Source: a virus (taxonomy: Duplodnaviria > Heunggongvirae > Uroviricota > Caudoviricetes). Taken from it: DNA of 40,429 nucleotides. The translations under genes were made by a program, and so were the position numbers. Under the pieces are notes generated by a model, which saw only the letters and a program-made list of their open reading frames with translations, had not been told where the DNA came from and ran no database searches. Positions 20,240 through 40,429 of this stretch are shown here, one piece after another. Location of the stretch: positions 1-40,429 of IMG/VR virus record IMGVR_UViG_2529293138_000011; one strand, given 5' to 3'. Position 1 is the stretch's first letter. Every line of letters begins with the position of its first letter.

Positions 20240-20728
20240 TTAATAGCCATCAGAAGTAAGCGCTACAGATTTCAACCCCTCAATGTCATCCTTGGACAGG
20301 GCGAACCATTCACCGTGCTTTCTCTTTGCGGCAAATTTGCGATGAAGCATGTTTTCAGCTTCTCTTCCACCAGGGATCAGGCACTCAAGCTTCAAACAGT
20401 CTGGTCCAGAGTTGCCAAGCGATTTGATGCGTTGTGGAATGTTGGATGAATACCCAATTTTGGTTAGCCCAGTTTTCTTCGATGACAAAACGTATACCTG
20501 AGGAGGTTCTTTTCTCTGGTCTTCCATTACACGTCTCATTGTTGCCATAAGTCCGCCGTGCATCAGCATTTCAACAAAGAACGCTGACCGAACACCTGAC
20601 GACTTAAGCATGCCAGAAAATTCACTTGCCAATTCCATTAACTCTGCGATGTTTTCAGGAACTTTTTGGCAGTTATCTTCCTTGTATAAGGAAATCATTC
20701 TTTGAAGCTTTTCTTCTAATTGGTTCAT
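20240..20728 (-). CDS. GIY-YIG-like (T5orf172/MUG113-type) domain protein, moron
   Basis: From the internal Met MNQLEEKLQRM...; the C-terminal half VYVLSSKKTGLTKIGYSSNIPQRIKSLGNSG...ECLIPGGREAENMLHRKFAAKRKHGEWFALS has the T5orf172-type pattern. The track ORF's upstream extension runs through a terminator hairpin, so the start is placed at 20728. Confidence 0.6.
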   Translation of the reverse strand: MNQLEEKLQRMISLYKEDNCQKVPENIAELMELASEFSGMLKSSGVRSAFFVEMLMHGGLMATMRRVMEDQRKEPPQVYVLSSKKTGLTKIGYSSNIPQRIKSLGNSGPDCLKLECLIPGGREAENMLHRKFAAKRKHGEWFALSKDDIEGLKSVALTSDGY

Positions 20729-20872
20729 AGCGTCTTTACCTTTTAGAAAGTGAGCCTGTCTCACAGAAAAGCCGCCCGAGAGAGGTCGCCACCTATAACG
20801 GCATTTCTCAGGCTCGCTTACTGAAAGGCTCTCGTTAATATGCGCGTGAGATGCGCTGTGAAATTCAGATAT

Positions 20873-20895
20873 AAAAAAGCCCCGCACCGCGAGGC
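20873..20895 (-). terminator. Rho-independent terminator after the lysis cassette
   Basis: On the minus strand: GCCTCGCGGTGCGGGGC followed by TTTTTTAT. Confidence 0.6.
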
Positions 20896-20927
20896 TCATT
20901 AAATGGACTTTGTGATTTGCAAAAAAA

Positions 20928-21365
20928 TTATTTCAGGCACTGAGTCCTGATGTACTCCTGCAGGTAGTTAACCTGCGCGGTTATCCTGTCGATTCCACTT
21001 CGGAGACGGTAATAATTGAGTTCAGCATCTGCTGTAAGTCTTGGGATTTCTCCATTGCCCATGCTGCTGGCTCCGGTCGTTGACTTTGCACAGGTGGCGG
21101 CGACTTGCAGGCGCTTACGCCCAGCAGAAACATCAGCACGGAGGCTTTCGATAGTCGCGTTAGCATCAGCAAGCTCCTTTGTGTATCTGGCGTCGAGTTC
21201 TGCTACATCACGTTGACGCTTCTGCATATCAGCGATGATGGATGTGGCTTTATCGCGCTGCTCTTTGTAGGTCATGGCGTTATCACGGTAATGATTAACA
21301 GCCCATGACAGACAGACGATGATGCAGATAACCAGAGCGGAGATAATCGCGGTTACTCTGCTCAT
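20928..21365 (-). CDS. Rz: Rz i-spanin
   Basis: 145 aa, N-terminal TM then coiled coil, with Rz1 embedded in the +1 frame; follows endolysin R. Confidence 0.85.
20981..21172 (-). CDS. Rz1: Rz1 o-spanin lipoprotein embedded in Rz
   Basis: Embedded ORF with lipobox LLGVSAC followed by the proline-rich segment [16 protein letters not shown]. Exact start uncertain. Confidence 0.7.
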
Positions 21366-21838
21366 ACCTCAATCTCTCTGACCGTTCCGCCTGCTTCTTT
21401 GAATTTTGCAATCAGGTTGTCAGCCTTATGCTCGAACTGACCATAACCAGCGCCCGGCAGTGAAGCCCAGATATTGCTGCAACGGTCGATAGCCTGACGG
21501 ATATCACCGCGATCAATCATCGGTAAAGCGCCACGCTCTTTAATCTGTTGCAGTGCCACAGCGTCCTGGCTTTTCGGAGAGAAGTCTTTCAGGCCAAGCT
21601 GCTTACGATAGGCATCCCACCAACGGGAAAGAAGCTGGTAACGTCCGGCTGCTGTTGATTTGAGTTTGGGGTTTAGCGTGACAAGTTTGCGAGGGTGATC
21701 GGAGTAATCAGTGAATAGCTCCCCGCCTACAATGACGTCATAACCATGATTTCTGGTTTTCTGACGTCCGTTATCAGTTCCCTCTGACCACGCCAGCATA
21801 TCGAGGAACGCCTTACGTTGATTATTGATTTCCACCAT
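21362..21838 (-). CDS. R: Endolysin R (lambda-type lytic transglycosylase)
   Basis: 158 aa [51 protein letters not shown], essentially lambda R. Confidence 0.95.
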
Positions 21839-22145
21839 CTTCTACTCCGGCTTTTTTAGCAGCGAAGCGTTTGATAAGCGAACCAATCGAGTCAGTACCG
21901 ATGTAGCCGATGAACACGCTCGTTATATAAGCGAGATTGCTACTTAGTCCGGCGAAGTCGAGAAGGTCACGAATGAACCAGGCGATAATGGCGCACATCG
22001 TTGCGTCGATTACTGTTTTTGTAAACGCACCGCCATTATATCTGCCGCGAAGGTACGCCATTGCAAACGCAAGGATTGCCCCGATGCCTTGTTCCTTTGC
22101 CGCTAGAATGGCGGCTAACAGGTCATGTTTTTCTGGCATCTTCAT
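21822..22145 (-). CDS. S: Holin S (lambda S107/S105 dual-start motif Met-Lys-Met)
   Basis: 107 aa [64 protein letters not shown], essentially lambda S. Confidence 0.95.
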
Positions 22146-22540
22146 GTCTTACCCCCAATAAGGGGATTTGCTCTATTTAATTAGGAATAAGGTCGATTAC
22201 TGATAGAACAAATCCAGGCTACTGTGTTTAGTAATCAGATTTGTTCGTGACCGATATGCACGGGCAAAACGGCAGGAGGTTGTTAGCGCAACCTCTTGCC
22301 ACCCGCTTTCACGAGGTCATGTGTAGAAGGCCGCAGCATAACTATCACTGATGAATTCAGGATAGCCAGTGGCTACGGCTCAGTTTGGGCTGTGCTGTTT
22401 CTGGGCGGCGATGACGCCTGTACGCATTTGGTGATCCGGTTCTGCTTCCGGTATTCGCTTAATTCAGCACAACGGAAAGAGCACTCGGTGCATTTAAGCC
22501 AAGCCCCATAAGGGAGAATGCTCTTACCTGTTACACAGAT

Positions 22541-22598
22541 ATAAAAAATCCCGAAACCGTTATGCAGGCTCTAATATTACCTGCGAACTGTTTCGGGA
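22541..22598 (-). terminator. Lambda-type tR' terminator (3' end of the 6S-like late leader)
   Basis: The minus strand reads ...CCTGCATAACGGTTTCGGGATTTTTTATATCTG, matching lambda tR' as recalled. Flanking sequence up to S is collinear with lambda. Confidence 0.75.
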
Positions 22599-22730
22599 TT
22601 GCATTTTGCAGACCTCTCAGCCTGCGATGGTTGGAGTTCCAGACGATACGTCGAAGTGACCAACTAGGCGGAATCGGTAGTAAGCGCCGCCTCTTTTTAT
22701 CTCACTACCACAACGAGCGAATTAACCCAT

Positions 22731-23222
22731 CTATCCCATACTGGAGAATTCACCATGATATTTTATCCTGGCATTTTCCATTGCCTTTCTAGCCTCCTCG
22801 ATATCGTCAAAACACCCTACATGAATCCTTTTACCATTAACTCTAATTCTTCCAACCCACTTGTTTGCAGCAGAATTAAAAGTCACCCCCTTCACACCAG
22901 ATGAATTGTTTTTCCTCATCTTGCTGTTCCATGAGTTTTGAGTGTTAGTAACAACACGAAGATTGGCTATCCGGTTATCAGACCTATCACCATTAATATG
23001 GTCAATAACATCGGTTGGCCAATCATTGTAAACCATCAGCCATGCAATTCTATGGACATATAGCCGCATTCCATAAAGTTTTACCTGCAGATATCCATTT
23101 GTTTTATAGCCAACAACAGCACCATAGATAAATCTAGAGGACCGAGGTGGATTCTTCCATGTAAGAATTCCAGTATCTGGATTGTAATTAAAAAGTCTCA
23201 ATGCATCTTCACGTTTTAACAT
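22731..23222 (-). CDS. HNH homing endonuclease with AP2-like DNA-binding domain (moron inside the late leader)
   Basis: 163 aa. HNH motif DHINGDRSDNRIANLRVVTNTQN and an AP2-like segment GVKGVTFNSAANKWVGRIRVNGKRIHVGCFDDIEEARKAMENA. AT-rich. The stop lies immediately 5' of the lambda-homologous ATGGGTTAATTCGCTCG segment. Confidence 0.8.
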   Translation of the reverse strand: MLKREDALRLFNYNPDTGILTWKNPPRSSRFIYGAVVGYKTNGYLQVKLYGMRLYVHRIAWLMVYNDWPTDVIDHINGDRSDNRIANLRVVTNTQNSWNSKMRKNNSSGVKGVTFNSAANKWVGRIRVNGKRIHVGCFDDIEEARKAMENARIKYHGEFSSMG

Positions 23223-23414
23223 AGGCGAACCACATAGATATTAGAGCCTGCTGACATAGAAATATCACCACGAGAGAAGTCGCCAAAAGCGATATTTCTC
23301 AGGCTCTATTCCTATGTGCTCTCGAGTTTATGATGCGCATGTCAGTGCGCTTAGAACTTAAAGATGAGGTGGGTAAAAGCTGAAAGAATGTGAACGGATA
23401 TAAATCTGCCATTC

Positions 23415-23451
23415 TTTGGTCAAATTTACCCAACTTTATTCAAAAAGTCAA
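23415..23451 (-). promoter_or_regulatory. Late promoter pR' with Q-binding element (qut)
   Basis: The minus strand reads TTGACTTTTTGAATAAAGTTGGGTAAATTTGACCAAAGAATGG, near-identical to lambda pR' (-35 TTGACT, 17-bp spacer carrying the Q-binding element, -10 TAAATT), about 45 bp downstream of the Q stop. Confidence 0.75.
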
Positions 23452-23493
23452 TATCATGCCGTTAATATGTTGCCATCCGTGGCAATCATGCTG

Positions 23494-24117
23494 CTAACGT
23501 GTGACCGCATTCAAAATATTGTCTGCGATTGACTCTTCCTTGTGGCATTGCACCACCAGAGCGTCATACAGCGGCTTAACAGTGCGTGACCAGGTGGGTT
23601 GGGTAAGGTTTGGGATTAGCATCGTTACAGCGCGATATGCGGCGCTTGCTGGCATCCTGGAATAGCCGACGCCTTTGCATCTTCCGCACTCTTTCTCGAC
23701 AACTCTCCCCCACTGCTCTGTTTTGGCAATATCAACGGCCCGGCCAGTACCGTGGCAATCTCTGCATCTTGCGCCCGGTGTCGCGGCACTACGGCAATAA
23801 TCCGCATAAGCGAATGTTGCGAGCACTTGCAGCACCTTTGCCTTAGTATTTCCTTCGAGCTTTGCCACACCACGGTATTTCCCCGATACCTTGTGTGCAA
23901 ATTGCATCAGATAGTTGATAGCCTTTTGTTTGTCGTTCTGGCTGAGTTCATGCTTACCGCAGAATGCAGCCATTCCGAATCCGGCTTGTGATTGCGCCAT
24001 CCCCATAGCAGCCATCACATCAGTACCGGAAAGAGAGTCAGAAGCCGTGGCCCGTGGTGAGTCGCTCATCATCGGGCTTTTTGGCGAATGAAATTTAGCT
24101 ACGCTTTCGAGTCTCAT
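23494..24117 (-). CDS. Q: Late antiterminator Q (lambda type)
   Basis: 207 aa MRLESVAKFHSPKSPMMSDSPRATASDSLSGTDVMAAMGMAQSQAGFGMAAFCGKHELSQNDKQKAINYLMQF, essentially lambda Q. Confidence 0.95.
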   Translation of the reverse strand: MRLESVAKFHSPKSPMMSDSPRATASDSLSGTDVMAAMGMAQSQAGFGMAAFCGKHELSQNDKQKAINYLMQFAHKVSGKYRGVAKLEGNTKAKVLQVLATFAYADYCRSAATPGARCRDCHGTGRAVDIAKTEQWGRVVEKECGRCKGVGYSRMPASAAYRAVTMLIPNLTQPTWSRTVKPLYDALVVQCHKEESIADNILNAVTR

Positions 24118-26890: not shown

Positions 26891-28771
26891 TTAATACTCC
26901 GTCACGTTTTCCTGTCGCCACGCCTCGTCATATTCCGATTTCGGCATATTGGCGATGTAGCTATATGGCGATCCTGATTCAAGTTGCAGGAACTGGTGCG
27001 ATTGCTCGTCAAGGAACAACGGGACACCACCTTCCCAACCTTCGCCGTTACGTTGTTTTTCAAGCATCAAAACAGATGCAGGAGACGCCAGTAGCTGTTC
27101 GTCCTTCTCTGACATCTTTTCACCACTCTGAACTCTCTGTAACGCTCTCTCGCGAGCCTTGTTACGCCAGATGATAAAAAGGTTGTCTGTCAGGTCTGTT
27201 ATCGCTCCAGAGCCTTTTACGTCCATTTTCCCGGTTGGTTTTTCTTCGCTGTCTCCTTTTCGCGAGTGAGTAACGAGAATGACGTGGGAGTTTGTTTTGT
27301 TTTTGAAGTCGCAAATCGAGTCAACAAACGCCTTCTGCCCGTTATAGTCATCGTCGCCTATGCCACATTTCATCAGGCTGTCGATGATGAATAACTGGAT
27401 GCCGTATCGGCGGCGAGCGTAGTCGAATATTTCGATCAGCCTGTCGGCTTTCGCCGTTCCGGTCAGGCCAAACACCCAAAGTCTTTCGTCATAGAATTTA
27501 AATGCAGAGTCAATTTCAAGCACTGGCGGCATCTTGCAGCACGTCGCCTGACGGGTAAGGCGCTTAAGGAGAATACCAGGCTTCAGCTCAAGTGACGCGA
27601 TGCACGTCTTCACACCCTGACGCATTGCCTCAAGTGCCATATGCCCGACAACCTCCGTTTTTCCGTGACCGTTCACCCCATTGACCAGCGTCAACTCTGC
27701 CTCACGGAACTGGAATTTATCTGCCAGAGATTCCCACGGTGGATTAAACAGATACTGCTGCTTGCCATAGAAAGCGTTGATAGTGTCCTGGTAAAACTCG
27801 CGCGCGCTGTAGAGTTCTTCAGGATCGAAGTAGGATGCCGTGCCGATGTACTGCCAGATTTCATCCTCGGTAACACCGTTCATCAGGCATTCGTTGATGT
27901 CTTTGTACGGCAGAGTAACAAGACGGCAACGATGTTCACCGAGTCGGCTTGCGATTTCCCTTGCGGCTTCACGACCAACATCGTCAACGTCCATCGAGAT
28001 GAATATTTCCTCAAACCTGTCGAGGTTGTGATACTCAAACTCAATCCACTGTTGCTTAGCGCCTTTCCCGCCACCAAACGGCACGGATAACGCCGAGATG
28101 CCGTATTGCGCATAGCTCATACAATCAATTTCGCCTTCGCAAAGTACAACCGCCCTCACGCCAGCGTCCAGAGCCTGCCATCCGAACAGACAAGGTTCGC
28201 AATCACCTTCTGCCATAATGACTTTCTTCCCGTCCGGGCGCTCAGTGCTGATTCGCTTGACCTGCAACAACTCACCATCGCGTTTATACGGAAGCACCAG
28301 AGCATCCAGTTCTCGTTCTCCATTCCACACCTTGCCGCTGACAACCTCGTAGCGCTTTACGACTTCTGGCGATATGCCCCGCGATTGCAGGTACTCAAGA
28401 TGGGATTCTGTTCTGGTAACGTAGCGGGCGATTTTCTTGCGGTCAGGTCTGGAGAATTTCTTCTCACGTTTGGCATCGAAATGGTGATCGTCATCCTTGA
28501 TTCCGAGAAAGGCTTTCGCTTCCTGCATAGCCTGATGCAGGTTAATTCCACGACATGCCATCCACAAATCAAGCATGTCACCGCCGTCTCCCTCAGCGAA
28601 ATCAGCCCATTTTTTCTTGCCGCTAAGGTTGACCTTAAGGCTGTTTCCCTTGTCACCGTTGACGTTACCGGCAACCCACTCATGCCCCTCTTTCTTGCCG
28701 TTTGGCAACAGGTGCGGAGCCACCCTGTCAACCTGCGCCCAAAGCAGGTCACTGAGTTCACTTGGAGTCAT
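26891..28771 (-). CDS. Bifunctional DNA primase-helicase (Toprim primase N-terminal domain fused to DnaB-like P-loop helicase)
   Basis: 626 aa. Zinc-binding/Toprim-like features (CEGEIDCMSY, acidic DVDD) then Walker A GVNGHGKT and Walker B-like FIIDSL. Replaces a lambda P/DnaB-loader type module. Confidence 0.75.
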   Translation of the reverse strand: MTPSELSDLLWAQVDRVAPHLLPNGKKEGHEWVAGNVNGDKGNSLKVNLSGKKKWADFAEGDGGDMLDLWMACRGINLHQAMQEAKAFLGIKDDDHHFDAKREKKFSRPDRKKIARYVTRTESHLEYLQSRGISPEVVKRYEVVSGKVWNGERELDALVLPYKRDGELLQVKRISTERPDGKKVIMAEGDCEPCLFGWQALDAGVRAVVLCEGEIDCMSYAQYGISALSVPFGGGKGAKQQWIEFEYHNLDRFEEIFISMDVDDVGREAAREIASRLGEHRCRLVTLPYKDINECLMNGVTEDEIWQYIGTASYFDPEELYSAREFYQDTINAFYGKQQYLFNPPWESLADKFQFREAELTLVNGVNGHGKTEVVGHMALEAMRQGVKTCIASLELKPGILLKRLTRQATCCKMPPVLEIDSAFKFYDERLWVFGLTGTAKADRLIEIFDYARRRYGIQLFIIDSLMKCGIGDDDYNGQKAFVDSICDFKNKTNSHVILVTHSRKGDSEEKPTGKMDVKGSGAITDLTDNLFIIWRNKARERALQRVQSGEKMSEKDEQLLASPASVLMLEKQRNGEGWEGGVPLFLDEQSHQFLQLESGSPYSYIANMPKSEYDEAWRQENVTEY

Positions 28772-28875
28772 GATTCCCTCAGATTGAGATTTTTAAACCA
28801 GAAATCGACAAACGAAATACTTAACCAGCCGTGGTTATAACCAGCGACCAGTAGCGATTTGATTTTTGATTTCAT
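28768..28875 (-). CDS. Possible 35-aa ORF coupled between the initiator and primase-helicase genes
   Basis: Hand translation: MKSKIKSLLVAGYNHGWLSISFVDFWFKNLNLRES. RBS AGGTGA; the stop overlaps the primase-helicase start (ATGA). Confidence 0.3.
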   Translation of the reverse strand: MKSKIKSLLVAGYNHGWLSISFVDFWFKNLNLRES

Positions 28876-28878
28876 GGT

Positions 28879-29739
28879 TCACCTGTCGAAAAACACGTAG
28901 CCAGTTTTCGATACGGTGATTGCGGATGATGGTTTGGATTGTGGTTGAATAGTTTCTGGCTTCTCGTCGTTCCAGCGCTGACCGTTCAGGTAGCTCGATG
29001 GTAACAACCTGTCGAATCCGAACTGCTTACCATTCCTGCATGCGATGTCTTCTGCCAGCATCGTGGCAAACTCGCTTGCCGTACCCCTGGTAGTTTTACG
29101 CCATTCCCTGAACTGTGTTCTGAATGCCGAAGCTGCGTTTTTCTTCCCGGCTTTCCGCATGCCTGCACACCAGAATATTTCCTCGAATGCCTTGTCGGTT
29201 TCTTCGTGACGGTCAGGTGATTTTTCACACTCCGTCCGAACACTTTCGGACATAGTGTTTTTATTATTTCTTTTTTCTTTTGTAATAGTTTCTTTTGTGT
29301 GTCCCTGTTTTGGTGACAGCGCTGTCACCGTTTTGGTGACACTTTTTGTCACCAATGCAGTGACATTATCACCAGAGTAGTGACACCCTTCGATTTGCCA
29401 TTCCTCGATGTTCTTGTTAGGCCCGATTTGCTGGCCTTCGCGAAGGATAACCTTCATCGCGATAAGCTCATTCTTGGCCTTGTTTACCTTCTGTCTTGGC
29501 AGCCTGGTAATTTGAGCTAACTGACTATCAGAGATGCGATCCATCTTTTTACCGTAGCCGTATGTTTTACGGCATATGGCGTGGGCAACCTTGCTCTGAT
29601 TTTTCGTTAAATCTGCGCCGATAAGCTCTTCATACAGGGCATTTGCAAGACGGGTATAACCATCTTCAACTTCTGCCACACGACGCTCCACAGGCCGTTG
29701 TGAAGGCCTTAAATGTGTTACGGTTGCAAGATTACTCAT
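28879..29739 (-). CDS. Replication initiator (lambda O-like N-terminal domain) containing the origin iterons
   Basis: 286 aa with an O-like N-terminus ([14 protein letters not shown]...). The internal [19 protein letters not shown] segment is encoded by GTGACA-type iterons. Confidence 0.75.
29250..29390. other. Putative origin of replication: inverted-repeat iterons (GGTGACA...TGTCACC) plus adjacent AT-rich tract inside the initiator gene
   Basis: TTGGTGACAGCGCTGTCACCG, TTTTGGTGACACTTTTTGTCACCAA, GCAGTGACATTATCACCAG, AGTAGTGACACCC; flanked by ttttattatttcttttttcttttgtaatagtttcttttgtg. Confidence 0.65.
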
Positions 29740-29878
29740 GACCTTTCTCCTTCTGCATCAGCTTCACTTTTTCCAACTCAGCCCGGAATCGACCAGGCTG
29801 CTTGAAGCTGGACAGGAAGCGATCACGTAGTATGTGTTTGTGAATTTTGTCCTGGTAAGGACTGAGTTGTTTTGTCAT
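29732..29878 (-). CDS. Small basic protein between cII and the initiator gene (48 aa)
   Basis: Hand translation: [56 protein letters not shown] 6 nt upstream; stop overlaps the initiator start. Confidence 0.45.
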
Positions 29879-29910
29879 AATGACTCCTGTTGATAGATCC
29901 AGTAACGACC

Positions 29911-30204
29911 TCAGAACTCCATCTGGATTTGTTCAGAACGCTCGGTTGCCGCCGGGCGTTTTTTATTGGTGAGAATCGAAGCAACTTGTCGTGCCAATCG
30001 AGCCATATCGTCGTCAACGACGCCCCATTCAAGAACAGCAAGCAGCATTGAGAACTTTGGAATCCAATCCCTCTTCCACCTGCTGATCTGCGACTTATCA
30101 ACTCCCACAGCTTCCGCTGTCTTCTCAGTTCCAAGCATTGCGATTTTGTTAAGCAACGCACTCTCGATTCGTAGAGCCTCGTTGCGTTTGTTTGCACGAA
30201 CCAT
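29911..30204 (-). CDS. cII: Transcriptional activator CII
   Basis: From the internal Met, [75 protein letters not shown] is essentially lambda CII (97 aa). The lambda-like TAAGGAAATACTTACATATG leader is present. Confidence 0.9.
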
Positions 30205-30262
30205 ATGTAAGTATTTCCTTAACAAATAAGAAGTTATGCGCATCAACTTATGCGCGTTGTAT

Positions 30263-30306
30263 TCCCGCATTTCGGCGGGAATGAGGACCATGACTGTTAA
30301 AGAGCG
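30263..30306 (-). promoter_or_regulatory. nutR (boxA and boxB hairpin) downstream of cro
   Basis: On the minus strand: boxA CGCTCTTTAACAG, then boxB hairpin TCCCGC-CGAAAT-GCGGGA. The same boxB sequence occurs at nutL. Confidence 0.65.
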
Positions 30307-30312
30307 GTGTTA

Positions 30313-30507
30313 CTATTTGTTTTTCTTGTTGCTTGGGAAAGGACGAACTTCCTCTCCAATCACACTGCCATCAGGCTTTACCGTAACCATAATGTTACGG
30401 CCTGCCAGAATGGCCTTGCTGATAGCGCACTGGATTACACCAAAGTCACTGGCTGCTTTAGCCTGTCCATGGATTTTGGCGTAATCGGCAAGTGTCATTC
30501 GAATCAT
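30313..30507 (-). CDS. cro: Cro repressor
   Basis: [62 protein letters not shown] is collinear with lambda Cro (C-terminal PFPSNKK). Start chosen at the ATG with a GGAG RBS; the track ORF begins 2 codons upstream at a GTG. Confidence 0.8.
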
Positions 30508-30538
30508 ATGCACTCTCCGTTATTAACCATGAACAAAG

Positions 30539-30578
30539 AATACTACAGGTATTCAAAGCAATCAATACTCAGGGTATT
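30539..30578. promoter_or_regulatory. OR operators and pR/pRM region
   Basis: Two 15-bp palindromes, AATACTACAGGTATT and AATACTCAGGGTATT, between divergent cro and cI. Confidence 0.65.
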
Positions 30579-30613
30579 TTTAGTTTAAGTACCTTAGCTA
30601 TTAGAATTAAGCT

Positions 30614-31330
30614 ATGGAAAATAAAAAATCACTGACGACAGAACAGCTCGAAGACGCTAAGCGGCTTAAGGCTTTGTATGAGTCAAAAAAGAAAGAATTG
30701 GGAATAACCCAATACTCAATCGCTGATGAACTGGGTATCACCCAAGGAGCGGTAGGGCATTATCTTAATGGCAGAAACGCGCTAAACGTTGAGGTCGCAT
30801 CTGGTTTTGCACGTTTGTTGCAAGTCTCAATTGCTGATTTTAGCCAGTCAATTGCTGCCAAGGTTGCAGAACAGGCAGAAAGCCTTAAGAGCGATGCCAA
30901 CGTAAGGTATGCAGGGGAATACAGAGCAGGAAAGAGGTATCCGGTGTTAAGCAGTATCCAGGCTGGCTCGTGGTGTGAAGCATGCGAACCATACACCATT
31001 AAAGACATAGATGTTTGGCTTGAGTCTGACGCGCATATTCAAGGCAATGCGTTCTGGCTTAAAGTGGAAGGTGATTCAATGACGGCACCGGTTGGGTTAA
31101 GCATTCCAGAGGGAACATTCGTTCTTTTCGATACCGGAAGGGAGGCGATCAACGGCAGCCTGGTCATAGCAAAACTTTCTGACTCTAACGAAGCAACATT
31201 CAAGAAGCTGATAATCGACGGCGGAAATAAATACCTCAAGGGACTTAACCCTGCATGGCCTCTCGTGCCAATCAATGGAAACTGCAAGATTATAGGCGTT
31301 GCAATTGAGACAAAACTAAGGCTGGTTTGA
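30614..31330 (+). CDS. cI: CI repressor (HTH plus LexA/S24-type autocleavage domain)
   Basis: 238 aa. N-terminal HTH (ITQYSIADELGITQGAVGHYLNG) and C-terminal domain resembling lambda CI (FWLKVEGDSMTAP...FKKLIIDGGNKYLKGLNPAWP). Divergent from cro. Confidence 0.85.
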   Translation: MENKKSLTTEQLEDAKRLKALYESKKKELGITQYSIADELGITQGAVGHYLNGRNALNVEVASGFARLLQVSIADFSQSIAAKVAEQAESLKSDANVRYAGEYRAGKRYPVLSSIQAGSWCEACEPYTIKDIDVWLESDAHIQGNAFWLKVEGDSMTAPVGLSIPEGTFVLFDTGREAINGSLVIAKLSDSNEATFKKLIIDGGNKYLKGLNPAWPLVPINGNCKIIGVAIETKLRLV

Positions 31331-31349
31331 TCACGCAAGGGGGACGCTT

Positions 31350-39181: not shown

Positions 39182-40429
39182 CTATATTGCTGAAGGTACA
39201 GGCGTTTCCATAACTATTTGCTCGCGTTTTTTACTCAGGAAGAAAATGCCAAATAGCAACATCAGGCAGACAATACCCGAAATTGCGAAGAAAACTGTCT
39301 GGTAGCCTGCGTGGTCAAAGAGTATCCCAGTCGGCGTTGAAAGCAGCACAATCCCAAGCGAACTGGCAATTTGAAAACCAATCAGAAAGATCGTCGACGA
39401 CAGGCGCTTATCAAAGTTTGCCACGCTGTATTTGAAGACGGATATGACACAAAGTGGAACCTCAATGGCATGTAACAGCTTCACTAATGAAATAATCCAG
39501 GGGTTAACGAACAGCGCGCAGGAAAGGATACGCAACGCCATAATCACAACACCGATAAGTAATGCATTTTTTGGCCCTACCCGATTCACAAAGAACGGAA
39601 TAATCGCCATGCACAGCGCTTCGAGTACCACCTGGAATGAGTTGAGATAACCATACAGGCGCGTTCCTACATCGTGTGATTCGAATAAACCTGCATAAAA
39701 GACAGGAAAAAGTTGTTGATCAAAAATGTTATAGAAAGACCACGTCCCAACAATAAATATGACGAAAACCCAGAAGTTTCGATCCTTGAAAACTGCGATA
39801 AAATCCTCTTTTTTTACCCCTCCCGCATCCGCCGCTACGCACTGGTGATCCTTATCTTTAAAACACATGTTGATCATCATAAATACAGCGCCAAATAGCG
39901 AGACCAACCAGAAGTTAATATGGGGACTGATACTAAAAAATATGCCGGCAAAGAACGCGCCAATAGCATAGCCAAAAGATCCCCAGGCGCGCGCTGTTCC
40001 ATATTCGAAATGAAAATTTCGCGCCATTTTTTCGGTGAAGCTGTCAAGCAAACCGCATCCCGCCAGATACCCCAGGCCAAAAAAGAGCGCCCCCAGAATT
40101 AAACCTACAGAAAAATTGCTTTGCAGTAACGGTTCATAAACGTAAATCATAAACGGTCCGGTCAAGACCAGGATAAAACTCATACACCAGATGAGCGGTT
40201 TCTTCAGACCGAGTTTATCCTGAACGATGCCGTAGAACATCATAAATAGAATGCTGGTAAACTGGTTGACCGAATAAAGTGTACCTAATTCCGTCCCTGT
40301 CAACCCTAGATGTCCTTTCAGCCAAATAGCGTATAACGACCACCACAGCGACCAGGAAATAAAAAAGAGAAATGAGTAACTGGATGCAAAACGATAGTAC
40401 GCATTTCTGAATGGGATATTCAGTGCCAT
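39182..40429 (-). CDS. cscB: Sucrose:H+ symporter (oligosaccharide/H+ symporter family, LacY-like MFS permease)
   Basis: 415 aa MALNIPFRNAYYRFASSYSFLFFISWSLWWSLYAIWLKGHLGLTGTELGTLYSVNQF..., which I recognise as E. coli CscB; 12-TM MFS composition. Host gene outside the prophage. Confidence 0.85.
   Translation of the reverse strand: MALNIPFRNAYYRFASSYSFLFFISWSLWWSLYAIWLKGHLGLTGTELGTLYSVNQFTSILFMMFYGIVQDKLGLKKPLIWCMSFILVLTGPFMIYVYEPLLQSNFSVGLILGALFFGLGYLAGCGLLDSFTEKMARNFHFEYGTARAWGSFGYAIGAFFAGIFFSISPHINFWLVSLFGAVFMMINMCFKDKDHQCVAADAGGVKKEDFIAVFKDRNFWVFVIFIVGTWSFYNIFDQQLFPVFYAGLFESHDVGTRLYGYLNSFQVVLEALCMAIIPFFVNRVGPKNALLIGVVIMALRILSCALFVNPWIISLVKLLHAIEVPLCVISVFKYSVANFDKRLSSTIFLIGFQIASSLGIVLLSTPTGILFDHAGYQTVFFAISGIVCLMLLFGIFFLSKKREQIVMETPVPSAI

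What the first reader, a model, noticed from the sequence alone, without database searches (positions are those of the whole stretch)
22700..23451. HNH endonuclease gene inserted inside the lambda-type late leader, between pR'/qut and tR'
Q, pR' (TTGACT-17 bp-TAAATT) and the sequence from ATGGGTTAATTCGCTCG through tR' to S are near-identical to lambda as I recall it. In lambda these are contiguous; here about 700 bp carrying an HNH-AP2 endonuclease gene is inserted a few nucleotides downstream of the pR' start point. The endonuclease would therefore be transcribed from the constitutive pR' in the lysogen and terminated at tR'. The insertion also alters the initial transcribed sequence that contributes to the Q-engagement pause.
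Basis: partly seen in the sequence, partly recalled or inferred. Interest (0 to 1): 0.6.

Follow-up and report, generated by a model that had tools for sequence, protein, structure and literature searches.

The report
Endonuclease gene with RNA leader in late leader
A lambda-like prophage carries an old, conserved cassette between its always-on late promoter and the terminator: an apparently undescribed folded RNA leader followed by an HNH endonuclease gene. The same RNA leader fronts other accessory genes in many well-known phages.

Summary
On the minus strand, Q (23494-24117), pR' (TTGACT-17-TAAATT, +1 at 23416) and the leader-tR'-S-R stretch are 95-97% identical to lambda. A 687-bp segment replaces 5 bp of lambda between -3 and +5 and carries an HNH_3+AP2 ORF (22731-23222).

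It is not a simple recent insertion into lambda. Relatives of the endonuclease at 56-86% identity all lie directly downstream of Q genes of several types, and dN/dS is about 0.07-0.10.

The 121 nt upstream of the ORF (23230-23350) form a conserved structured RNA: a hairpin, a long hairpin that occludes the ribosome-binding region, and two pseudoknots with 7-8 compensatory variants each. It matches no Rfam 15 family.

A diverged copy lies at 20738-20856, after Rz. That version occurs in 952 of 5426 complete E. coli genomes and in phi80/DH5alpha, HK620, HK639 and Stx2a phages. There it precedes rha, kilA-like, T5orf172, antirepressor or Acb2-like genes.

The -10-like pause element is kept (AAGAAT at +1..+6). 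No terminator separates pR' from the ORF, so transcription in lysogens as an ~870-nt RNA is plausible but untested. Translation is probably restrained by the leader RNA.

The parts
23494..24117 (-). Q antiterminator gene, 207 aa, lambda type
   Evidence: Pfam PF03589, E 1e-57. 97% nucleotide identity to lambda Q.
23423..23451 (-). Late promoter pR' with the Q-binding element between the hexamers (TTGACT-17-TAAATT)
   Evidence: Promoter scan. 27 of 29 bases identical to lambda.
23411..23416 (-). Predicted +1 (23416) and -10-like sigma70 pause-inducing element AAGAAT (lambda: AACGAT), followed by GG
   Evidence: Position set by register with lambda. Invariant in all HNH-bearing loci while -6..-1 varies. 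The role of the -10-like element comes from PMC5001585.
23351..23416 (-). Alternative initial transcribed region of 66 nt with a 5' hairpin (AAGAAUG/CAUUCUU). It replaces lambda +1..+4.
   Evidence: Alignment with lambda and with L002/L003, fold. A diverged homologue is present in L023.
23230..23350 (-). Structured RNA leader, type A: hairpin H1, a long hairpin P2/P3 whose base covers the ribosome-binding region, and pseudoknots PK1 (CUGACAU/AUGUCAG) and PK2 (CGAGAG/CUCUCG)
   Evidence: Pair counts on A2: 97.8% of cells paired against 33-50% for slid controls; 7 pairs with changes on both sides; 0 of 500 shuffles. RNAalifold predicts the same nested stems. Covariance model R1 scores 121 bits. 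PK table. No Rfam match.
22731..23222 (-). HNH(HNN)-AP2 endonuclease ORF, 163 aa, stop included
   Evidence: Pfam HNH_3 + AP2, phrog_99. Motif DHINGDRSDNRI.NLR is kept in the homologues; dN/dS 0.07-0.10.
22601..22730 (-). Remainder of the lambda-type leader (lambda +5 onward)
   Evidence: 95.4% identity to lambda from 22731 downstream.
22541..22600 (-). tR' intrinsic terminator: long hairpin plus U6 at 22548-22543
   Evidence: Inverted repeat I1, fold, identity to lambda tR'.
23300..23308 (-). TAGAGCCTG, the 5' arm of P2 and the upstream copy of a 9-bp direct repeat
   Evidence: Repeat families D1 and I13. Deletion between the two copies reproduces the junction seen in L002/L003.
22565..22573 (-). 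TAGAGCCTG inside tR', the downstream copy of the 9-bp direct repeat
   Evidence: D1, spacing 735 bp.
20873..20896 (-). Intrinsic terminator after Rz, immediately upstream of the second RNA element
   Evidence: Sequence GAGCCTCGCGGTGCGGGGCTTTTTT. The same terminator-then-element order is seen in Xenorhabdus and phage loci.
20738..20856 (-). Second, diverged copy of the RNA leader (type B). PK1 is fully swapped (UCUCAC/GUGAGA).
   Evidence: R1 hit, 63.7 bits, E 2e-14. PK table. 100% identical copy upstream of rha in a DH5alpha prophage.
20240..20728 (-). T5orf172/MUG113-domain ORF (162 aa) served by the type-B leader. The mechanical ORF start at 20899 is an over-extension through the RNA element.
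   Evidence: Pfam, phrog_4284, sequence.

Best explanation
The 687 bp between pR' and the lambda-type leader are a conserved two-part accessory cassette resident in the late leader: a structured RNA leader followed by an HNH(HNN)-AP2 endonuclease gene.

Shown:
- The junctions, and retention of pR', the Q-binding element and a -10-like pause element.
- No terminator or second promoter lies before the ORF, and an intact tR' follows it.
- The ORF is under purifying selection, and its clade always lies next to Q.
- The 121-nt leader has a covariation-supported fold (H1, a long hairpin, two pseudoknots). Its basal stem pairs with the bases at -15..-9 before the AUG.
- The same leader fronts other 'Bro-network' and accessory genes in many lambdoid phages.

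Inferred:
- RNA polymerase starting at the constitutive pR' transcribes leader, RNA element and HNH. In lysogens it stops at tR', giving an ~870-nt extended '6S-like' RNA.
- After induction, Q loads at the retained pause site, and the cassette becomes the first cistron of the late transcript.
- The pseudoknot-locked leader keeps translation of the potentially toxic nuclease low or conditional.
- The protein acts as a free-standing homing-type endonuclease that maintains the cassette among lambda-type late regions. Occasional decay and deletion fit the usual life cycle of such genes.
For: - Junctions and identity to lambda.
- Promoter and terminator anatomy.
- Constitutive PR' and abundant short RNA in lysogens: PMC7547250.
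- AAGAAT at +1..+6 invariant in all HNH-bearing loci while the flanking bases vary. Function of the -10-like element: PMC5001585.
- HNH_3 + AP2 domains and phrog_99.
- Catalytic motif kept; dN/dS 0.096 (against L023) and 0.067 (against L024). 16 of 23 substitutions among close copies fall at codon position 3.
- Six lineages of this HNH clade (100-56% identity) all lie just downstream of Q genes of 207, 254, 273 and 276 aa.
- Presence/absence polymorphism (16 of about 1250 E. coli genomes with a lambda-type Q/pR') and several mosaic backgrounds.
- Degenerate copies (frameshift plus H75Y; 320-bp deletion; whole-cassette deletion between 9-bp repeats).
- RNA structure. Model hits.
- Cargo diversity behind the same leader (Rha, P22_AR_N, KilA-like, T5orf172, Acb2/Tad1-like, HNH).
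- Precedent for RBS-sequestering RNA structures controlling phage homing endonuclease genes: PMC2988022.
- HNN-AP2 free-standing endonucleases with a gain-and-decay pattern: PMC2248197.
Against: - No transcript, protein or cleavage data exist for this locus.
- The Shine-Dalgarno sequence is weak here (GUGG), so the gene may be barely translated at all.
- In L027 and L028 a terminator sits between pR' and the cassette. Constitutive transcription is therefore not conserved across the clade.
- The sequence at the lambda pause site (+16/+17) is different here. Only 2 of 3 consensus pause positions can be matched, at +17, so Q loading efficiency is unknown.
- None of 50,697 deposited, propagated phage genomes carries the cassette. 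Viability of such a phage is inferred only from its recurrence in apparently complete prophages.
- The spread of the module through different mosaics can be explained by ordinary lambdoid recombination without homing.
- The covariation comes from related sequences with a limited number of independent events.
Confidence: 0.6

Rival explanations
1. A simple, recent selfish insertion. A free-standing HNH homing endonuclease gene landed in a lambda late leader, is read through from pR' by accident, and has no regulatory integration.
For: Relative to lambda the segment looks like a clean 687-bp-for-5-bp replacement. Only 16 of 5426 genomes carry it. The protein's nearest relatives in deposited phages are homing-type HNH genes of virulent siphoviruses at under 47% identity.
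Against: Homologues diverged to dS above 0.7 occupy the same Q-proximal position together with the same upstream RNA element. The initial transcribed region keeps a -10-like element in exact register. The upstream 121 nt are a conserved structured RNA shared with unrelated genes.
Confidence: 0.08
2. A domesticated prophage weapon or regulator. The HNH-AP2 protein is made in lysogens from pR'. It cuts (or, through AP2, binds and silences) incoming or co-resident lambdoid phages that carry the uninterrupted late leader. This would give superinfection interference rather than, or in addition to, homing.
For: Placement inside the one late-region unit that is transcribed in lysogens. Strong purifying selection. 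None of the 16 HNH-bearing genomes listed has a second lambda-type late leader, against roughly 10% of matching genomes overall (not significant). AP2-domain phage proteins can act as sequence-specific silencers (bioRxiv 10.64898/2026.02.23.707548). There is a weak PADLOC 'homing endonuclease' hit.
Against: The leader RNA and the weak SD argue against appreciable constitutive translation. In L027 and L028 the gene lies behind a terminator. No target site is known. 0 of 16 against an expected 1.7 is not informative.
Confidence: 0.17
3. The RNA is the payload. The pR'-initiated transcript acts as a regulatory, catalytic or ligand-sensing RNA, as StxS does in Stx phages, and the HNH ORF is interchangeable cargo behind it.
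For: The element is better conserved at nucleotide level than the ORF. It carries two covarying pseudoknots. It occurs with at least six unrelated cargo types. Short pR' transcripts can be functional sRNAs.
Against: Wherever the downstream sequence could be read, the element ends 7-20 nt before a start codon and its basal stem overlaps the SD. That is the signature of a cis-acting translational element. In most loci it lies behind a terminator inside the late operon, so it would not be made in lysogens.
Confidence: 0.15

Closest known systems
Lambda pR'-qut-tR' late leader (6S RNA) and StxS of Stx phages
   Same: The Q family, the -35/QBE/-10, a -10-like pause element at +1..+6 and tR' itself are the same, with 95-97% identity to lambda. 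A constitutive short transcript is expected in lysogens.
   Different: Lambda's unit is a 194-nt non-coding RNA and StxS is a processed sRNA. Here the unit is about 870 nt and contains a structured leader plus a protein-coding gene. The sequence at the pause site differs.
Free-standing HNH (HNN)-AP2 homing endonucleases of phages (Xanthomonas phages Xp10/OP1/Xop411; T1-like and chi-like coliphages; phrog_99)
   Same: Domain order, the boxes HR(I/L)AWL, WP, DNR, NLR and (E/Q)N, and a size of about 160 aa. There is presence/absence polymorphism with decaying copies.
   Different: Those genes sit between coding genes of virulent phages. This clade is tied to the Q-proximal non-coding leader of temperate lambdoid phages and carries a conserved pseudoknotted 5' RNA. 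No cleavage site is known.
RBS-sequestering hairpins upstream of T4-type homing endonuclease genes (I-TevI, I-TevII, I-TevIII, segB, Aeh1 mobE)
   Same: An RNA structure directly upstream of a nuclease gene pairs with the ribosome-binding region on long read-through transcripts.
   Different: The T4 structures are simple gene-specific hairpins, bypassed by an internal late promoter. This one is a 121-nt family with two pseudoknots, shared by unrelated genes across genera. No internal promoter was detected.
Morons of lambdoid late operons
   Same: An extra, dispensable gene inserted between essential late-region elements and variably present among relatives.
   Different: Morons are defined by their own promoter and terminator. 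This gene has no promoter of its own and borrows pR' and tR'.
Leader or antisense RNAs controlling antirepressor genes (P1/P7 c4-icd-ant, P22 sar-ant, P4 CI)
   Same: A structured RNA upstream of ant/Bro-type genes. Short complementary segments vary in a matched way between elements.
   Different: No similarity to the Rfam C4 or sar models at this position. The complementary segments here lie within one ~120-nt fold and look like intramolecular pseudoknots.

Membership tests
Lambda-type Q-dependent late regulatory region | Q protein of the lambda family (PF03589) | tested here: met
   E 1e-57, 207 aa. 97% nucleotide identity to lambda Q.
Lambda-type Q-dependent late regulatory region | pR' -35/-10 with the Q-binding element between them | tested here: met
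   TTGACT-17-TAAATT. 27 of 29 bases identical to lambda.
Lambda-type Q-dependent late regulatory region | -10-like sigma70 pause-inducing element at +1..+6 | tested here: met
   AAGAAT in lambda's register, with A2 and T6 kept; invariant in all HNH-bearing loci examined. This is a sequence criterion only; pausing was not measured.
Lambda-type Q-dependent late regulatory region | Discriminator-like GGG at +7..+9 and an elemental pause sequence positioning the pause at +16/+17 | tested here: inconclusive
   GGC instead of GGG. Lambda's G7...C16 G17 is replaced, and the best match is G8...U17 A18 (2 of 3), read against the rules in PMC5001585.
Lambda-type Q-dependent late regulatory region | Intrinsic terminator tR' shortly downstream of pR' | tested here: met
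   tR' is intact, but it lies about 870 nt from +1 instead of 194 nt.
HNH (His-Me finger) homing endonuclease, HNN-AP2 subgroup | HNH_3 nuclease domain with the catalytic His and the Asn residues | tested here: met
   PF13392, E 6e-17. D74-H75...N87...N96 are conserved in homologues. H75Y occurs in the frameshifted copies L015 and L016.
HNH (His-Me finger) homing endonuclease, HNN-AP2 subgroup | C-terminal AP2 DNA-binding domain | tested here: met
   PF00847, 33.6 bits against a cut-off of 33.3. The only PDB sequence hit is the AP2 domain of plant WRI1, E 0.003.
HNH (His-Me finger) homing endonuclease, HNN-AP2 subgroup | Sporadic presence at one genomic site among otherwise similar genomes, with decaying copies | tested here: met
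   16 of about 1250 E. coli genomes with a lambda-type Q/pR' carry it. There are frameshifted, internally deleted and fully deleted alleles.
HNH (His-Me finger) homing endonuclease, HNN-AP2 subgroup | Site-specific cleavage of the empty allele and biased inheritance (homing) | not testable with these tools
   Needs enzyme assays and phage crosses.
Moron | Own promoter upstream and own terminator downstream of the extra gene | tested here: not met
   No consensus promoter lies between pR' and the ORF. The only terminator is tR'.
Any described RNA family (Rfam 15), including C4, sar, self-cleaving ribozymes and riboswitches | Covariance-model match to the 121-nt element | tested here: not met
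   No hit at E<=1 (type A) or E<=5 (type B) apart from chance microRNA and leader matches far below threshold. Only sar at 4189-4256 passes gathering in the whole window.
RBS-sequestering translational hairpins of phage homing endonuclease genes | A stable structure pairing with the Shine-Dalgarno region | tested here: met
   The basal stem of P2 (columns 33-39 with 119-125) covers -15..-9 before the AUG. In Xenorhabdus copies it covers AGG of AGGA. It is 97.7% paired, with compensatory changes at 34-124 and 35-123.
RBS-sequestering translational hairpins of phage homing endonuclease genes | An internal (late) promoter that yields transcripts lacking the 5' arm | tested here: not met
   No promoter-like site inside the element. 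Non-sigma70 promoters are not covered by the scan.

The most novel reading that the evidence does not exclude
The 121-nt element is a new class of structured cis-regulatory RNA, conceivably ligand-, protein- or RNase-responsive or even catalytic. It gates a hypervariable accessory-gene slot in lambdoid phages.

Its architecture is conserved from E. coli to Xenorhabdus, Morganella, Klebsiella, Salmonella and Edwardsiella phages. Its two pseudoknot helices are swapped as matched pairs: 7 variants of PK1 and about 8 of PK2.

It fronts nucleases, antirepressors, Rha, KilA-like and an Acb2/Tad1-like gene. It is present but unannotated in 952 of 5426 E. coli genomes, in what appears to be phi80 in DH5alpha, in HK620 and in Stx2a phages. 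In this window one copy has been placed under the constitutive late promoter.
Probability: 0.45. Interest if true: 0.8.

Novelty: new variant of a known kind. Interest (0 to 1): 0.6.

Why it matters
The pR'-tR' unit is the one part of a lambdoid late region that is transcribed in lysogens, and it is the textbook substrate for Q antitermination. A natural, recurrent variant stretches this unit from 194 to about 870 nt and places a nuclease gene in it while preserving the pause element. That makes it a ready-made test of what Q loading needs downstream of +6. It also tests whether prophages use this 'always on' RNA to express, or deliberately silence, selfish or competitive functions.

Independently, the upstream element is a widespread, strongly covarying, unannotated RNA. 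It sits in front of rha, kilA, ant-like, nuclease and anti-defence genes in model phages and Shiga-toxin phages. If it controls their translation, it would explain how lambdoid phages tolerate and exchange potentially toxic accessory genes. It can be tested directly in DH5alpha.

Tried and rejected
- Rfam 15 gave no family for either copy of the element at permissive thresholds.
- Deposited phages and plasmids hold no record with the cassette or its type-A leader.
- The protein-pattern scan of GTDB genomes for the HNH found nothing. The DNA-pattern scan for the RNA element was what worked.
- The metagenome scan added only four E. coli-type copies plus five chance hits.
- I first read the 117 nt after +1 as an 'alternative leader' seen without HNH in RMDEC465 and FDAARGOS_943. 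I rejected these as an ancestral empty site. They stop exactly at TAGAGCCTG, lack the 5' arm of tR', keep only the first ~55 nt of the RNA element (33.8-bit partial hit), and are explained by deletion between the 9-bp direct repeats.
- HK97 gp74-type terminase-associated HNH was rejected: wrong domain architecture and position.
- Group I intron or ribozyme housing the ORF was rejected. There is no conserved sequence downstream of the stop codon and no Rfam hit.
- Integron attC-like DNA hairpin was rejected. The element lies upstream of, and on the strand of, the ORF, and its two pseudoknots covary, which points to RNA.
- A nut-like boxA/boxB resemblance (GCGCACUGACAUGCGC against P22 boxB, recalled from memory) was rejected. 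The boxA-like stretch is not conserved, and the hairpin loop covaries with the 3' bulge instead.
- A promoter inside the element was not found.
- The MAFFT alignment of both subtypes (A4) was too poor in the variable helices for column-wise pair counting. I tabulated complementarity per sequence instead.
- The Henthorn & Friedman 1995 work on phi80/P22 rha and IHF could not be retrieved. It is cited only from memory as a lead.
Full report
**Orientation and check of the observation**

The lambda-like late region lies on the minus strand of the window.
- Q is 23494..24117 (Pfam Antiterm, E 1e-57).
- The holin S is 21822..22145 and R is 21362..21838.
- The only strong sigma-70 consensus match in 22100-23600 is TTGACT(23451-23446)-17 nt-TAAATT(23428-23423) on the minus strand.
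- In register with lambda this puts +1 at 23416.

BLAST against lambda (NC_001416, locus L001) gives 97.0% identity from window 24127 to 23419. It gives 95.4% from 22731 to 21300. Lambda positions 1602 and 1608 of L001 are adjacent to the two junctions. So 687 bp replace 5 bp of lambda, between -3 and +5 of the late transcript.

The ORF 22731..23222(-) has HNH_3 (E 6e-17) and AP2 (33.6 bits, cut-off 33.3) domains and falls in phrog_99. Its TAG stop abuts the resumed lambda sequence ATGGGTTAATTCGCTCG. tR' is intact: 15-nt arms at 22600-22586 and 22561-22547, an inner stem, and T6 at 22548-22543.

**How common it is**

- No record among 50,697 deposited phage genomes holds the segment. Lambda-type phages match only the two flanks.
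- The best tblastn identity for the protein in those phages is under 47%, in T1-like, chi-like and Xanthomonas phages.
- The upstream 194 nt have no blastn match there at all. Plasmids have none.
- Among 5426 complete E. coli genomes, 1253 match the Q/pR'/tR' flanks. Only 16 carry the whole arrangement, at 98-99.9% identity.
- IMG/VR holds 14 intact and 4 degenerate copies. Metagenomes add four more.

In all of them the cassette is in the same place, but the DNA beyond Q and beyond tR' differs. There are several nin regions, at least five different continuations after tR', and lambda-type or class II holin lysis cassettes. The Q-cassette-tR' block thus travels as a module through the usual lambdoid mosaics.

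The window itself appears to be a P22-like prophage, judging from the sizes of its structural ORFs (the structural genes were not compared with P22) and from a sar RNA at 4189-4256.

**The qut site is preserved, not destroyed**

In lambda the sigma70-dependent pause needed for Q loading is induced by a -10-like sequence that ends at +6 (insertions 'after +6' separate it from the discriminator; PMC5001585). From memory it is AACGAT at +1..+6. The paused RNA ends at +16/+17, positioned by a G-rich discriminator and an elemental pause sequence (PMC5001585).

Here +1..+6 reads AAGAAT. It keeps the critical A2 and T6 and is closer to TATAAT than lambda's AACGAT. It is followed by GG.

AAGAAT-GG is invariant in all 17 HNH-bearing loci examined and in the 2 deletion derivatives. 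Meanwhile -6..-1 varies: TGACTC, TGACCC, TAACCC, TGACCA. That pattern suggests selection on the pause element.

Downstream, lambda's G7...C16 G17 is not kept. The best match to the pause consensus is G8...U17 A18. Whether Q loads as efficiently cannot be decided from sequence.

**The cassette is old and tied to Q**

A search of 5.8 billion proteins found a graded series of homologues. Every one whose context could be read lies directly downstream of a Q gene and, where the contig continues, upstream of lysis genes:
- P0002, 86% identity: lambda-like Q/pR' (L023).
- P0003, 74%: Q of 254 aa (L024).
- P0004, 66%: Q of 273 aa (L025 and L026).
- P0006, 62%: Xenorhabdus bovienii, Q of 276 aa (L027).
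- P0007, 56%: L028.

dN/dS is 0.096 (window against L023, dS 0.74) and 0.067 (against L024). The motif DHINGDRSDNRI.NLR is invariant. Among the near-identical E. coli copies, 16 of 23 substitutions fall at third codon positions.

Decay also occurs:
- L015 and L016 have a frameshift plus H75Y at the catalytic histidine.
- L020 and L021 have lost about 320 bp of the ORF.
- RMDEC465, FDAARGOS_943 and FDAARGOS_944 have lost everything between two 9-bp direct repeats TAGAGCCTG (23300-23308 and 22565-22573). This leaves a truncated leader fused to the 3' half of tR'.

A functional protein, sporadic presence and decaying copies are what is expected of a free-standing homing endonuclease gene of the HNN-AP2 type, as described for Xanthomonas phages (PMC2248197). 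Ordinary modular recombination could also account for the distribution.

**Position relative to the terminator**

In the window, L023, L024 and L025, no terminator lies between the Q-proximal promoter and the ORF, and one follows it. In L027 and L028 the order is promoter (TTGACA-17-CATCAT), short leader, intrinsic terminator, cassette. Being inside the constitutive unit is thus a feature of some lineages, including this one, and not of the clade as a whole.

For this window the expected product in a lysogen is an RNA of about 873 nt, from 23416 to about 22544. This follows because PR' of lambdoid phages is constitutively active and gives an abundant short RNA in lysogens (PMC7547250). It remains an inference; I had no expression data.

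**The unexpected part: a conserved structured RNA in front of the gene**

The sequence upstream of the start codon is better conserved than the ORF across the diverged homologues.

Pattern scans for its most conserved stretch found it in 19 contigs from 13 Xenorhabdus species and one Morganella species, several times per genome, and in IMG/VR. There it follows an endolysin gene and an intrinsic terminator.

In those loci it precedes different genes:
- Rha (PF09669).
- P22_AR_N antirepressor.
- An Acb2/Tad1 hairpin-domain protein.
- HNH proteins only 44% identical to ours.

The alignment of 21 distinct sequences (A2) supports the following fold:
- Hairpin H1.
- A long hairpin (P2/P3) whose basal 3' strand is the Shine-Dalgarno region.
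- Pseudoknot PK1, between the H1 loop and a 7-nt bulge.
- Pseudoknot PK2, between the linker and the apical loop.

On this alignment 97.8% of cells pair, against 33-50% when partners are slid. Seven pairs show changes on both sides, and 0 of 500 shuffles reach the observed values. RNAalifold independently returns the same nested stems. The single-sequence fold has z = -3.8.

**A second copy in the window, and its spread**

A covariance model built without the pseudoknots (R1) found a second, diverged copy in the window at 20738-20856(-), at 63.7 bits and E 2e-14. It lies right after Rz and a terminator. It lies in front of a T5orf172/MUG113 ORF whose real start is the ATG at 20728.

This 'type B' version has blastn matches (to a 231-nt query that also spans the end of Rz and the terminator) in 234 deposited phage records and in 952 of 5426 E. 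coli genomes. Examples:
- HK639, before rha.
- HK620, before kilA-like hkbK.
- Klebsiella phages, before rha.
- Salmonella g341c.
- Edwardsiella EPP-1.
- 74 Stx2a phages.
- A prophage in DH5alpha, between the lysis genes and rha, at 100% identity. From memory this is phi80.

It is unannotated everywhere I looked.

Across both types the pseudoknots covary as blocks:
- PK1 has seven perfectly complementary variants: CUGACAU, CUGACGU, UCUCAC, UCGCA, UCGUACA, UGCCC and UCACAC. Cognate runs average 6.4 bp (minimum 5) against 3.2 for non-cognate pairs.
- PK2 has about eight variants: CGAGAG, CAUGAG, CACGAG, CUGAGAG, CCCGAG, CACAGAG, CACAGAA and UCAUGA.

No Rfam 15 family matches either copy. Full-text searches found no description of it.

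**Most likely mechanism**

The element starts just after a terminator, or here 66 nt after +1. It ends 7-20 nt before a start codon. It buries the ribosome-binding bases in a stem locked by two tertiary helices. The most economical reading is a cis-acting translational gate for potentially harmful accessory genes on read-through late transcripts.

This is the same logic as the RBS-sequestering hairpins of T4 homing endonuclease genes (PMC2988022), but as a shared and far more elaborate RNA family. In this window the gate sits under a constitutive promoter. That would allow the HNH message to be made in lysogens without making much nuclease; the local SD is also degenerate (GUGG).

What opens the gate is unknown. 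Candidates include processing, a protein, a ligand or ribosome coupling.

Only this HNH clade is found in the Q-proximal slot (6 of 6 lineages). The post-lysis slot holds many cargo types. This suggests that the clade's target or function is linked to the late regulatory region. Cleavage of uninterrupted late leaders of relatives, leading to homing or interference, is the obvious but untested idea.

**Verdict**

It is wrong about a recent insertion into lambda and about disruption of the pause element. It is incomplete because it misses the RNA leader.
- The HNH-in-late-leader arrangement is a new variant of known kinds: a free-standing HNH gene and the lambdoid late leader.
- The RNA element may be a new RNA class and is the more valuable lead.

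Noticed in passing
window 20738-20856 (-), with terminator 20873-20896 and ORF 20240-20728: A second, diverged copy of the structured RNA leader lies after Rz, in front of a T5orf172/MUG113-domain gene. The mechanical ORF call (20240-20899) runs through the RNA element. The likely start is the ATG at 20728.
   Followed up: yes
L086 (E. coli DH5alpha, NZ_CM151409.1 2639474-2639592); also HK620 L079, HK639 L078, Stx2a phages L077 and L084: The type-B RNA element is 100% identical in a DH5alpha prophage (phi80, from memory), between the lysis genes and rha. It is unannotated in 952 of 5426 E. coli genomes and has blastn matches in 234 phage records. From memory (Henthorn & Friedman 1995), rha of phi80 and P22 is the gene whose expression blocks growth in IHF mutants. 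A link between that regulation and this RNA was not checked.
   Followed up: partly
L058 (Xenorhabdus beddingii) 1147-1268 and downstream ORF from 1275: Behind the same RNA leader sits an 80-aa protein with an Acb2/Tad1 hairpin domain (PF24729, E 4e-14), a family of anti-CBASS/anti-Thoeris sponges. The slot therefore also carries anti-defence cargo.
   Followed up: no
L017 (IMGVR_UViG_2579779034_000011) 3623-3677, against window 22547-22600: The interior of the tR' hairpin is inverted relative to lambda and the window, as if flipped by recombination between the hairpin arms. A 14-nt inverted copy of the tR' interior (GCAGGCTCTAATAT, window 23251-23238) also forms the 3' arm of the RNA element's P2 stem.
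   Followed up: partly
L002 (RMDEC465) 2965-3300 and L003 (FDAARGOS_943): These deletion derivatives of the cassette end in a tR' that lacks its 5' arm, followed by tRNA-Asn and tRNA-Thr genes and a class II holin. Whether late transcription is still Q-dependent there is unclear. FDAARGOS_943 has an extra ~46-bp insertion in the leader.
   Followed up: partly
L022 (E. coli LH85-a) 27128-39709 and 23962-24111: In the closest complete genome the prophage's portal gene is split by an integrase-bearing element with capsid, terminase small subunit and primase genes. This is the helper-embedded PICI configuration of PMC10111431. A truncated second HNH gene fragment lies upstream of nohD.
   Followed up: no
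window 4189-4256 (+): A sar antisense RNA (Rfam RF00262, 92 bits) marks a P22-type immI (ant) region. Together with the ORF sizes, this suggests the window is a P22-like prophage with a lambda-type Q and lysis module.
   Followed up: no
L059, L066, L067 (X. bakwenae), L058, L062, L063 (X. beddingii), L053, L061, L065 (X. santafensis): Xenorhabdus genomes carry two or three copies of the RNA element each, with different PK2 sequences and different cargo. This suggests several resident prophages whose elements are kept distinct.
   Followed up: partly
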